Part shown: positions 6,647 through 9,797 of the stretch, piece after piece
How the letters are laid out: each line of letters starts with the position of its first letter
How positions within the stretch are numbered: the stretch's first letter is position 1
IMG/VR virus record: IMGVR_UViG_3300007231_000016
Coordinates: 1-36,818 of that record
Reading direction: 5' to 3' (one strand)
Source: a virus
Lineage: Duplodnaviria > Caudoviricetes
Length of the DNA: 36,818 bases
Translations under genes and position numbers: made by a program
The notes under the pieces: generated by a model
Told to the model about the DNA's origin: nothing
The model's input: only the letters and a program-made list of their open reading frames with translations
Databases searched by the model: none

Positions 6647-7405
6647 ATGGCTAAGGTCCTATTCTACGATATAGAAACTGCACCTAACCTCGCATACGTG
6701 TGGGGGCAGTATGAACAGAACGTGGTGCAGCAATACCGGGAGTGGTACATCATGTGCTTCTCCTACAAGTGGGAAGGGCAGAAAGCAGCTAAAGTAATTG
6801 CCCTCCCTGACTTTGACTTGTATACGGAAGACCCAGAGGACGATCGGGAAGTTGTGCAAGCCTTATGGGATTTGTTTGACGAAGCTGATGTTGTGGTAGC
6901 TCACAACGGCGACAAGTTCGACATGAAGAAAGCTAACGCCCGGTTCATTGTGCATGACATGGGGCCACCTACGCCGGTGCATCAGATAGATACGTTGAAG
7001 GCTTCTAAACGGTACTTCAGGTTCAACAGCAACAAGCTTGACAACTTGGGTACGCATCTGAGTTTGGGCAACAAAGTAACAACTGGCGGGTTTCCTTTGT
7101 GGGAGGGGTGCATGAATGGTGATGAGAAGGCGTGGAACACGATGAAGAAGTACGCTCGCCAGGACGTTGACTTACTTGCAGATCTTTATTACAGGTTGCG
7201 TCCGTGGATGACAACTCATCCGAATCTTGCGTTGTTTGATGGTCGCCCTGATTCTTGTCCGACTTGTGGTCATGCTGATTTGATGCGTCGGGGGTATCGG
7301 TCTACGAAGGTTGCTCAGTACGCCCAGTTTCAATGCAAGAAATGTAAGGCGTATTGTCGTAAGCGTGTGAAGTCTGACGCTACGTCCCCTAACCTAGTGC
7401 CATGA
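6647..7405 (+). CDS. DnaQ/RNase H-like 3'-5' exonuclease with C-terminal zinc ribbon
   Basis: YDIET (ExoI), HNGDKFD (ExoII), YARQDV (ExoIII), CPTC...CKKC. Confidence 0.85.
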   Translation: MAKVLFYDIETAPNLAYVWGQYEQNVVQQYREWYIMCFSYKWEGQKAAKVIALPDFDLYTEDPEDDREVVQALWDLFDEADVVVAHNGDKFDMKKANARFIVHDMGPPTPVHQIDTLKASKRYFRFNSNKLDNLGTHLSLGNKVTTGGFPLWEGCMNGDEKAWNTMKKYARQDVDLLADLYYRLRPWMTTHPNLALFDGRPDSCPTCGHADLMRRGYRSTKVAQYAQFQCKKCKAYCRKRVKSDATSPNLVP

Positions 7406-8175
7406 GAGTATTTTCATTCGGGGGTGGAGTTCAATCTACTGCTGCTTTGGTGCTTGCAGCTCAAGGCAAAATTGATTATAAAACTTTTATTTTTGCTGAT
7501 ACAGGGGACGAACACCCAGAAACGTACGAGTATTTAGAGAACGTCCATAAACCTTTTGCGACGGAACATGGGTTAGAAATTTTGTGTATAAAAAAAACGT
7601 GGAAAGACGGATCACAATATTCAATTCTTGAGAACATTGACCGGTTGCCATCAGCAATTCCGATACCTGTGTATTTAGATTCTGGGAAACCTTGGCAACG
7701 ACAATGCACTGTAGATTGGAAAATTCATACGATAGCTAAAGAGTTGAAACGTCTTGGTGCTACTAAAGATAACCCGGCTCATGTCGGCATGGGGATTAGC
7801 GTAGACGAAATACAAAGAGCTAAACCTAGCACTATCCCTCACGAAACATTAGAGTTTCCTTTACTAGACTTGTTGTTACGAAGAGACGATTGTCATCGTA
7901 TTGTTAAAGAAGCGGGTTTAGAGAAAGCTCCTCGTTCTGCTTGTTTCTATTGTCCGTACCATTCAACAGAGTATTGGCGAGATTTGCGGGAAGAGCAGCC
8001 AGTATTATTTGATAGAGCATTAGAGTTAGAAGATACTTTAAGCGCACGAACCCAAAAAAGGTTTGGGACTAGTGTGCATCTTTGGCGTAAAGGATCGTTA
8101 AGAGATTTAGATGACCAACAGCGTTTTGATTTTGATGAACCTGATACTTGCGATTCTGGTCATTGCTTTACATAA
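7402..8175 (+). CDS. PAPS-reductase-like PP-loop protein
   Basis: SFGGGVQS PP-loop, ADTGDE, RQCT, SACFYCP and C-terminal CDSGHC. Confidence 0.75.
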   Translation: MRVFSFGGGVQSTAALVLAAQGKIDYKTFIFADTGDEHPETYEYLENVHKPFATEHGLEILCIKKTWKDGSQYSILENIDRLPSAIPIPVYLDSGKPWQRQCTVDWKIHTIAKELKRLGATKDNPAHVGMGISVDEIQRAKPSTIPHETLEFPLLDLLLRRDDCHRIVKEAGLEKAPRSACFYCPYHSTEYWRDLREEQPVLFDRALELEDTLSARTQKRFGTSVHLWRKGSLRDLDDQQRFDFDEPDTCDSGHCFT

Positions 8176-8612: not shown

Positions 8613-8868
8613 CTTTGCCCAAGATTTTGATTGCTGCGGCAGGTCTAAATTCGCATTCTTTCATTACGTTCCCTCTTTCGTAGGCTGAATGGCCGCCCCA
8701 TGTTAACGACGGCATGTAGAAGTGGTTGAACCAGTCGCCTACACAGAGTGCGTACGCTAAGCAGTCTCGTTTAACTGTGCAGTGTTGGTTACAGAACGAA
8801 GGTTTGATGTCTCCGGCTGGTATGCCTCGGCACGCAGCTTTCTGGTACCACCACGGCGTTTCGCTCAT
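8605..8868 (-). CDS. whiB: WhiB-like Fe-S transcription regulator (divergent)
   Basis: W..KAAC...C-x3-C-x5-CLAYAL...TWGG.S..ER. Confidence 0.75.
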   Translation of the reverse strand: MSETPWWYQKAACRGIPAGDIKPSFCNQHCTVKRDCLAYALCVGDWFNHFYMPSLTWGGHSAYERGNVMKECEFRPAAAIKILGKGD

Positions 8869-9797
8869 TGCGTTAACACTTTGATAGCGTGATGTCCTTG
8901 TTGTGGTACGACTCCGTTGCCTAATAGTTTTAATAGGATGTTACGTTTCATCCCTGAGTTGCATACCCATCCGTGGGGTAGGCCCATCATCCATTCAACG
9001 AACCAGGGGTTTAGTTTGCCTTCGTCTACAGGTTTAGGCGCTGTTCTTCCCAATGTATTTTCCCATCTGGTGATGGCTGATCGGTATTGTCCCCAGGAAG
9101 TCTCGCTAACGCATTCTCTAGATTCTGTGGTTGGTCTAGTGGACGTTCCCAAATGTTCATGTTGCGTGCTTCTCCGTTCTGTGCCCGTGGTGTTGGCAAC
9201 AGACGAACCTCTATAGACAAACTCTTCCCGTGACCGTTGCCGTTGTTGTGCTGCTCCCGCTTCTCCATTATCCAATTCTCCCACCACTCCACAGTCTTGT
9301 CGTCCCCCATGTCGTTCACTACTGGTGTCGGTAGCAACACAAAACCATCTAGCTCTTTGATGTGGCGCTCCGACATCGGAAGCTCGGACAATTCCCCAGC
9401 GCGAGTCATACCCCATTTCGGTAAGTGTTGCAACGACGGAGGTTCCTCCGAGAGTAAGGATGCCTGAGACATTCTCCAACACAACTGTTCCGGGTCGAAG
9501 AATCCTAATGGCGTCCCCGATATACTCAAAGATTGCTCGGTCATCTTCTAATCCTTTACGGTACCCGGCTGTACTAAATGGTTGGCACGGGAACCCGGCA
9601 GTCACAATGTCTACTTCATCGTAGTCATGCGGGTTAGTTTTGGTTACGTCTGTGAAAGGTTTAGCTCCGAAATGGGAAGACATTAAATCTATGGCTGGCT
9701 TATATATTTCTGAGAACCATGAGGTCTTAGCACTATAGAACTGTTCTACTGCGAGGTCTAACCCTCCGTAACCTGAACAGAACGAACCTATCTTCAT
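8865..9797 (-). CDS. DNA (cytosine-5)-methyltransferase
   Basis: Motif I FCSGYGG, motif IV GFPCQ, motif VI LENV, motif VIII HQRAR, EWMMGLP, motif X LGNGVVPQ. Confidence 0.92.
   Translation of the reverse strand: MKIGSFCSGYGGLDLAVEQFYSAKTSWFSEIYKPAIDLMSSHFGAKPFTDVTKTNPHDYDEVDIVTAGFPCQPFSTAGYRKGLEDDRAIFEYIGDAIRILRPGTVVLENVSGILTLGGTSVVATLTEMGYDSRWGIVRASDVGAPHQRARWFCVATDTSSERHGGRQDCGVVGELDNGEAGAAQQRQRSREEFVYRGSSVANTTGTERRSTQHEHLGTSTRPTTESRECVSETSWGQYRSAITRWENTLGRTAPKPVDEGKLNPWFVEWMMGLPHGWVCNSGMKRNILLKLLGNGVVPQQGHHAIKVLTQ
9026..9544 (-). CDS. Nested alternative-frame ORF, putative second methyltransferase subunit
   Basis: 172 aa open in the +1 frame, AAAGGA RBS upstream, two LLPTP repeats, CWRMSQASLL...PKWGMTR.G motif. 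Confidence 0.6.
   Translation of the reverse strand: MTEQSLSISGTPLGFFDPEQLCWRMSQASLLSEEPPSLQHLPKWGMTRAGELSELPMSERHIKELDGFVLLPTPVVNDMGDDKTVEWWENWIMEKREQHNNGNGHGKSLSIEVRLLPTPRAQNGEARNMNIWERPLDQPQNLENALARLPGDNTDQPSPDGKIHWEEQRLNL

What the first reader, a model, noticed from the sequence alone, without database searches (positions are those of the whole stretch)
9026..9544. Gene within a gene: 172-aa ORF nested in the +1 frame of the C5 methyltransferase
Seen: a fully nested, same-strand ORF with an AAAGGA RBS carries two LLPTP-led repeats lying over the MTase variable region, where the main frame reads as low-information sequence. Established: M.EcoHK31I is a heterodimer whose beta chain is encoded in an alternative frame inside the alpha gene. 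Here the main frame appears to keep motifs I-X. Inference: the nested chain may supply only target-recognition modules (two repeats, possibly two specificities), either as a separate subunit or by frameshifting.
Basis: partly seen in the sequence, partly recalled or inferred. Interest (0 to 1): 0.72.

Follow-up and report, generated by a model that had tools for sequence, protein, structure and literature searches.

The report
Methylase with nested, swappable recognition chain
A phage DNA cytosine-methylase gene carries a second, conserved gene inside it, one base out of step, which likely makes a partner chain that clamps onto the enzyme and supplies short DNA-recognition modules; one module is cleanly missing in sister copies of this phage gene, which would let the phage change the sequences it methylates.

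Summary
Confirmed. ORF 9544-9026 (-, 172 aa, 'beta') lies in the +1 frame of C5 methyltransferase 9797-8865 ('alpha', motifs I-X intact). Both frames are under selection. 121 of 124 alpha-selected relatives with motif IX in alpha carry the beta head in +1. The start ATG and SD are written into alpha's motif V codons. Over the modules beta is conserved and alpha is only held open. Beta = docking head + two LPTP modules. The head matches M.EcoHK31I beta residues 41-48 and is predicted to pair with alpha's motif VII strand (ipSAE 0.86, best control 0.33). The modules resemble the P-T-L motif of monomeric target-recognition domains, sit between VIII and IX in single-chain relatives, and vary from 1 to 7 in shuffled order. 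Module B is deleted in frame in 3 of 8 runs laid. Best reading: a two-chain, probably multispecific anti-restriction methylase. Unlike EcoHK31I, beta lacks motif IX; this layout marks a mostly actinobacterial phage clade (cultured: Papez gp46, Neville gp75). Activity and specificity are untested. This scan noted the general nested layout in 48 other findings.

The parts
8865..9797 (-). alpha: C5 cytosine methyltransferase catalytic chain, 310 aa, motifs I-VIII, linker, WG helix, IX, X
   Evidence: PF00145 E 2.9e-40; TIGR00675 114.9 bits, above cut-off 100.65
9026..9544 (-). beta: nested +1-frame ORF, 172 aa (docking head, two LPTP modules, tail)
   Evidence: (phrog_1008 E 3.9e-10)
9552..9557 (-). 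SD-like AAAGGA for beta, formed by alpha's Lys-Gly codons in motif V; the ATG is formed by a GAT Asp codon
   Evidence: GAT 60 of 77; GGA 25 of 53 vs 78 of 719 elsewhere
9374..9502 (-). beta docking head (residues 15-57, FFDP..CWRMSQ..LPKWGMTRAGEL), overlapping alpha motifs VI-VIII
9200..9334 (-). module A (beta 71-115), likely target-recognition module
9098..9199 (-). module B (beta 116-149), likely target-recognition module; deleted in sister alleles (net -99 nt)
9096..9332 (-). alpha linker (about residues 156-234): the other-frame reading of the modules, poorly conserved but stop-free
9582..9596 (-). alpha motif IV (GFPCQ, catalytic Cys71)
8976..9014 (-). motif IX, in alpha and downstream of the beta stop (the difference from M.EcoHK31I)
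8895..8927 (-). motif X, in alpha

Best explanation
The nested +1 frame is a conserved second gene whose product likely binds the methyltransferase catalytic chain as a separate subunit and likely supplies its DNA target recognition through two short modules, so the pair would be a two-chain, probably multispecific phage C5 methylase. Shown: both frames are under selection; the beta ATG and SD are favoured in alpha's motif V codons; modules are gained, lost and shuffled as in-frame units. Predicted: the beta head (41-47) adds a strand to alpha's motif VII edge strand (130-136). Inferred: beta is translated from its own start; alpha's 80-residue linker loops out; one module at a time sits in the TRD position beside motifs VIII and IX, as in the tandem-TRD Bacillus phage enzymes; the methylation protects phage DNA from host restriction.
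For: Relatives chosen by alpha alone: 121 of 124 loci with motif IX in the alpha ORF have the beta head in +1 (counted). The +1 frame is open over motifs V-VIII in 96 of 106 non-redundant such loci (9.2 expected by recoding; +2 frame 12 of 106; 2 of 30 loci without head or this IX type). The other 10 have +1 stops in that stretch, with the beta head starting further downstream. The motif V Asp codon is GAT in 60 of 77 vs 171 of 609 upstream Asp codons, p 3e-17. Third-position entropy of conserved fourfold alpha codons is 1.49 bits inside the overlap vs 1.85 outside, p 8e-4; Gly129 is nearly fixed. Over modules A and B, identity is 0.72 and 0.84 in the beta frame vs 0.51 and 0.48 in alpha, with changes at beta third positions (284 vs 142/143; 189 vs 70/33). 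Alpha stays open across the modules in 93 of 93 loci, 21.7 expected. One PHROG (1008) matches beta at profile 68-214 and alpha's tail at 217-318. Single-chain relatives L087 and L252 carry LPTP modules in frame between VIII and IX; module A lies in the alpha frame in L161. A module PSSM picks the P-T-L/I motif 12-36 residues before IX in 24 of 28 monomeric controls (about 22% by chance; controls are few clades). Complex score 0.86 vs best control 0.33 (mark reached by 116 of 157 solved and 2 of 215 mismatched pairs; runs agree in at least 60% of contacts; partner pLDDT 59-60; own alignments, so counts hold roughly). Primers in the PMC2836561 supplement give EcoHK31I beta 41-48 as G-M-A-F-R-G-E-Y, spaced like beta 45-52 G-M-T-R-A-G-E-L (read by eye). 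That paper reports that removing about 42 N-terminal residues weakens alpha-beta association. Module B is missing in frame in runs X8, X9, X11 and in protein P0032.
Against: No translation, activity or specificity data exist for this locus. The papers read place the EcoHK31I TRD in alpha and give beta only motif IX. The modules have P-T-P where monomers have P-T-L/I (221 of 238 matches), and no profile or structure links them to a solved TRD: no PDB hit for beta, beta model pLDDT 58, pTM 0.22, modules under pLDDT 50 in the monomer model. Module B is almost absent from the confident interface. No 4-mer palindrome depletion tracks with module A or B. Class C was defined partly by the head hit, so the 96 of 106 figure is partly circular; the 121 of 124 count is not.
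Confidence: 0.68

Rival explanations
1. Beta is a real, required subunit, but the modules do not give separate specificities: they form one composite TRD, or only the first module is used and the others are spares or relax specificity.
For: Only module A is in the confident predicted interface; module B can be lost in natural alleles; no motif depletion tracks modules.
Against: Module B is under purifying selection in the beta frame (identity 0.84) and occurs as the only or the first module in other betas (P0100, L008); order is freely shuffled, as expected of independent units.
Confidence: 0.19
2. Beta is expressed but is a structural or regulatory partner; recognition lies in alpha's own variable region, as published for EcoHK31I.
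For: PMC2836561 and PMC3404938 assign the EcoHK31I TRD to alpha (passages); alpha keeps motifs I-X and its frame is held open.
Against: Alpha's linker is poorly conserved (0.48-0.51), its length follows the beta module number (Spearman 0.77), and LPTP modules take the TRD position in single-chain relatives.
Confidence: 0.07
3. One hybrid chain is made by ribosomal frameshifting from alpha into the modules and back into IX-X.
For: Natural frame switches at module junctions exist in relatives (ShiLan, Maddy2, L161), and alpha-to-beta splits recur on the tree.
Against: It needs two shifts. The conserved head is encoded over motifs VI-VIII, so it cannot share a chain with them. The ATG and SD are selected, and alpha stays open in 93 of 93 loci. 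My one slippery-heptamer pattern found no site before the beta tail (only codon 245).
Confidence: 0.05
4. The nested ORF is a shadow of alpha's codons with no product.
For: Lys-Gly codons force an AAGG, so part of the SD comes free.
Against: 0 of 5000 recodings give such an ORF; monomeric controls have stops in +1 (28 of 30); selection acts in the beta frame; 2097 related proteins.
Confidence: 0.01

Closest known systems
M.EcoHK31I alpha/beta (YGGCCR), as described in PMC2836561 (passages and supplement) and PMC3404938 (passages); Lee et al. 1995 not read
   Same: Beta is encoded wholly inside alpha in another frame; head motif G-M-x-x-x-G-E has the same spacing; the N-terminal part of beta mediates association.
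   Different: EcoHK31I beta carries motif IX and alpha only I-VIII and X; here alpha keeps IX and X and beta has head plus modules only. EcoHK31I is monospecific with the TRD assigned to alpha. No restriction partner is evident beside this phage gene.
Multispecific Bacillus phage C5 methyltransferases with tandem TRDs (passages in PMC8936443 and PMC12707154; primary papers recalled, not read)
   Same: Orphan phage C5 enzyme; tandem 30-45 aa units in the VIII-IX interval that come and go as blocks.
   Different: Those are single chains; here the units are on a second chain in another frame. Separate specificities are not shown.
M.AquI and the phiBT1 gp9.1 / SEA-PHAGES two-gene 'DNA methylase' pairs (phrog_1008)
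   Same: Two chains; phiBT1-type betas share the head and LPTP modules (Samy beta E 9e-11).
   Different: There alpha stops after motif VIII and beta carries IX and X. Their annotations start the second gene late or omit it.
Mycobacterium phage Papez gp46 and Gordonia phage Neville gp75
   Same: Same layout: alpha with IX-X, unannotated +1 head plus LPTP module.
   Different: One module each; the nested gene is not annotated in these records.

Membership tests
C5 cytosine DNA methyltransferase (PF00145 / TIGR00675) | Motifs I-X in order with catalytic PC, ENV and RxR | tested here: met
C5 cytosine DNA methyltransferase (PF00145 / TIGR00675) | Forms 5-methylcytosine in DNA | not testable with these tools
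   needs an assay
M.EcoHK31I-type nested heterodimer | Second chain wholly encoded in another frame of the catalytic gene | tested here: met
   (coding signal; translation not shown)
M.EcoHK31I-type nested heterodimer | Beta carries motif IX, which alpha lacks | tested here: not met
   IX at 9014-8976 is in alpha, past the beta stop
M.EcoHK31I-type nested heterodimer | Homologous N-terminal association segment in beta | tested here: met
   G-M-x-x-x-G-E spacing from primers; short motif only, the full EcoHK31I sequence was not obtained
M.EcoHK31I-type nested heterodimer | Both chains needed for activity | not testable with these tools
   complex predicted only
Multispecific tandem-TRD methyltransferases | Several TRD-like units in the VIII-IX interval, exchangeable as blocks | tested here: met
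Multispecific tandem-TRD methyltransferases | Each unit carries the conserved TL-type motif | tested here: inconclusive
   P-T-P-T-A vs P-T-L-T-A; PSSM finds the monomer motif in 24 of 28; no structural match
Multispecific tandem-TRD methyltransferases | Each unit confers its own target sequence | not testable with these tools
   k-mer proxy gave nothing
Multispecific tandem-TRD methyltransferases | Single polypeptide | tested here: not met
   units lie in the +1 frame
M.AquI-type split (alpha I-VIII, beta IX-X) | Alpha ends in the variable region | tested here: not met
   alpha runs through motif X

The most novel reading that the evidence does not exclude
A large clade of mostly actinobacterial phages runs a modular multispecific methylase in which all sequence recognition sits on a nested, separately translated chain, clamped to the catalytic chain by a strand encoded by nearly the same bases as its docking site. 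Its 30-45 aa modules (155 clusters among 417 distinct modules here) are a natural library of plug-in 5mC specificities that phage populations gain and lose within one gene.
Probability: 0.5. Interest if true: 0.75.

Novelty: new variant of a known kind. Interest (0 to 1): 0.52.

Why it matters
If true, hundreds of annotated actinophage 'DNA methylase' genes hide an unannotated specificity subunit, and phages tune their anti-restriction methylation by swapping short modules in an overlapping frame. It would also reopen where the TRD of EcoHK31I-type enzymes lies. A beta chain that holds no core motif would be a clean platform for mapping module to sequence and for engineering 5mC specificity. 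The natural A+B and A-only alleles give a direct test of what one module does.

Tried and rejected
The search for related loci with the beta alignment A1 gave no usable pattern, so I searched with the alpha alignment, which is also the less biased choice. Beta has no Pfam, NCBIfam or PDB match. AF2 of beta alone was poor and I did not run a fold search on it. AF2 of the single-chain relative L087 gave an HhaI-like core (Z 25.6, rmsd 3.5, 239 aligned) but left the modules unresolved. Specificity from composition: the window lacks CGCG (21 vs 82 expected), but the C-to-T products are not consistently raised and pooled flanks of module A or B loci do not share the loss; no motif can be assigned. 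RNA runs X18 and X20 do not cover the nested gene; this says nothing about expression. Promoter and terminator scan: chance level. Two E. coli plasmid methylases fetched in search of EcoHK31I were not identified as it and were not analysed further; the full EcoHK31I sequence was not obtained. Look-ups of earlier findings by sequence and by place returned nothing.

Full report
Setting. The window is a 36.8-kb tailed-phage contig (capsid, amidase, SSB, Rad52-like, PD-(D/E)XK, L5 gp82- and gp88-like genes). The methyltransferase lies in a minus-strand block of small DNA-metabolism genes. Near-identical DNA occurs in runs recorded as freshwater and marine metagenomes. An actinobacterial host is inferred: 437 of 439 phage records matching alpha at E 1e-25 are named for actinobacterial genera or phiBT1, and the named genomes inside its clade are Actinomycetota.

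Observation. Alpha is 9797-8865 (310 aa; PF00145 E 2.9e-40; motifs I, IV, VI, VIII, IX, X located). Beta is 9544-9026 (172 aa) in the +1 frame, with AAAGGA 7 nt upstream and a stop two codons before the ATG. In 0 of 5000 synonymous recodings of alpha did another frame stay open for 172 codons; the +1 frame stayed open over alpha 86-155 in 0.14%. Beta has no Pfam, NCBIfam or PDB match but hits phrog_1008 at profile 68-214, while alpha's tail hits the same profile at 217-318. The parts that other phages keep in one second gene are here divided between the frames.

Dual coding in relatives. 25 could not be parsed by my motif patterns; 215 were parsed and 188 were non-redundant. Layouts: C, as in the window (alpha I-X, beta head plus modules), 106; A, EcoHK31I-like (IX on beta, X on alpha), 30; B, phiBT1-like (IX and X on beta), 8 plus 2 uncertain; no head and no IX of this type, 30; truncated or other, 12. 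Counting all 240, 121 of 124 loci with IX in the alpha ORF have the head in +1; the three without (L087, its duplicate L193, L252) are single chains with LPTP modules in frame between VIII and IX. The +1 frame is open over motifs V-VIII in 96 of 106 C loci (9.2 expected), the +2 frame in 12; in the other ten the beta head starts further downstream, in several at an ATG within the ENV codons. The motif V Asp codon is GAT in 60 of 77 loci against 171 of 609 elsewhere, and all 60 give ATG. The Gly codon that completes AGGA is GGA in 25 of 53 against 78 of 719. Synonymous freedom in alpha falls inside the overlap (1.49 vs 1.85 bits, 12 vs 29 columns, p 8e-4). Over the modules the roles reverse: beta identity 0.72 and 0.84, alpha 0.51 and 0.48 (17 and 12 distinct homologous modules), yet alpha has no stop in 93 of 93 loci (21.7 expected). 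So both chains appear to be read through.

The modules. The beta profile found 2097 proteins among 7991 scored candidates. In the 120 fetched, of which part of the listing was cut from view, modules number about 1-7 and recur in different orders. The loci hold 417 distinct modules in 155 clusters. Among 107 C loci, modules are only in beta in 94, in both frames in 7, only in alpha in 2, and undetected in 4. Their consensus L/W-P-T-P-T/R-A resembles the P-T-L/I-T-A motif of monomeric enzymes: a PSSM without the fourth position picked that motif, 12-36 residues before IX, in 24 of 28 controls, which fall into few clades. The TRD lies between VIII and IX (PMC5944983, passages) and holds a conserved TL dipeptide in HhaI (PMC2790894, passages). 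Bacillus phage enzymes array several TRDs to resist many restriction systems (PMC8936443 and PMC12707154, passages). In this phage's own population module B is removed: 103 bases are replaced by 4, net 33 codons, in 3 of 8 runs laid (X8, X9, X11; two studies; 885-nt contigs in X9 and X11), matching the 139-aa protein P0032. X6, X10 and X14 keep both modules.

Structure. Beta alone folds poorly (pLDDT 58). With alpha the predicted complex scores 0.86 in median against 0.33 for the best of 3 controls; the mark was reached by 116 of 157 solved and 2 of 215 mismatched pairs, counts that hold only roughly with my alignments; partner pLDDT is 59-60. The best pairs join beta 41-47 to alpha 114-136, chiefly the motif VII strand 130-136. 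Beta 41-47 is encoded over alpha codons 125-131, so nearly the same bases write both sides. The interface lists also include module A residues (68-82, 109-117) and alpha residues of motif VIII, the WG helix, IX and X; their pairing is my inference. Primers in the PMC2836561 supplement give EcoHK31I beta 41-48 as G-M-A-F-R-G-E-Y, matching beta 45-52 in spacing, and that paper ties loss of about 42 N-terminal residues to loss of association. Its Figure S1 sequence is a picture and was not readable.

History. On a tree of 108 alpha cores (a random half of the C loci and a third of the monomers were kept), layouts C, B, mixed (D) and the monomer L087 form one starred branch (100/95) nested among layout A loci. 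B needs 5 changes and D needs 6 (midpoint root). Inferred: IX moved from beta to alpha once in this clade, and frame switches at module borders then recurred.

Mechanism. Alpha is translated through a dispensable linker; beta starts internally, clamps on by strand addition, and offers one module at a time to the DNA, giving 5mC at one or two motifs and protection from host restriction. Dual coding and module turnover are shown. Binding is predicted. TRD identity, multispecificity and the anti-restriction role are inferred.

Against. There are no activity data. The papers place the EcoHK31I TRD in alpha. No solved TRD matches the modules. Module B is barely in the predicted interface, and k-mer depletion does not follow the modules.

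Novelty. Nested two-chain C5 methylases are known from M.EcoHK31I. Ten literature searches (result listings, with passages read from seven papers and one supplement) showed no description of a beta without motif IX or of the phage family. The library lacks most subscription and older papers, bioRxiv supplements are closed, and REBASE was not searchable, so prior notice cannot be excluded. This scan recorded the general nested layout in 48 findings on other DNA, some with TRD-like or shuffled modules; those are unchecked notes, seen after my own analysis, not support. What this locus adds is the IX-in-alpha layout with counts, its clade, cultured examples (Papez gp46, Neville gp75) and a natural one-module deletion allele. 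Verdict: new variant of a known kind, interest 0.52.

Noticed in passing
window 8870-9793: The whole methylase gene may be accessory in the population: X8 has a contig joint 8869 to 9794 (only 30 letters on the short side), and in X9 and X11 contigs break at 8869 and 9794 with lower depth inside. The gene is bounded by stop/start overlaps at both ends.
   Followed up: partly
L197 and L206 near 1700; same frame pattern in L208, L214, L216, L218, L229, L235, L236, L239, L240, L256, L264: Thirteen Streptomycetaceae loci have alpha split into two frames right at the catalytic PCQ motif while the rest and the nested beta stay intact (sequences inspected for two). A shared break across species could be a programmed frameshift, an off switch or an inherited pseudogene.
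   Followed up: no
window 1-36818: CGCG is strongly avoided (21 sites vs 82 expected), as are several 6-bp palindromes with zero sites; likely host restriction pressure, not tied to the modules.
   Followed up: partly
window 7402-8175 (+): PAPS-reductase-family gene (phrog_424, E 7e-41) near the methylase; mycobacteriophage ShiLan also has one two genes after its methylase. Possibly another DNA-modification function.
   Followed up: no
L018 (phiBT1) 1339-2271: phiBT1 gp9.1 is annotated 'may be inactive', but an unannotated +1 ORF carries head, modules, IX and X, so the enzyme may be complete as two chains.
   Followed up: partly
L022, L023, L269, L270 (Maddy2, ShiLan, Estave1, RitaG): Mixed layout: modules in both frames, so alpha and beta could each offer recognition units.
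   Followed up: partly
H86-H115 (plasmid records): EcoHK31I-like nested betas also match under annotated methylase genes in Bacillus, Paenibacillus, Salmonella, Citrobacter and Ralstonia records (35 records).
   Followed up: no
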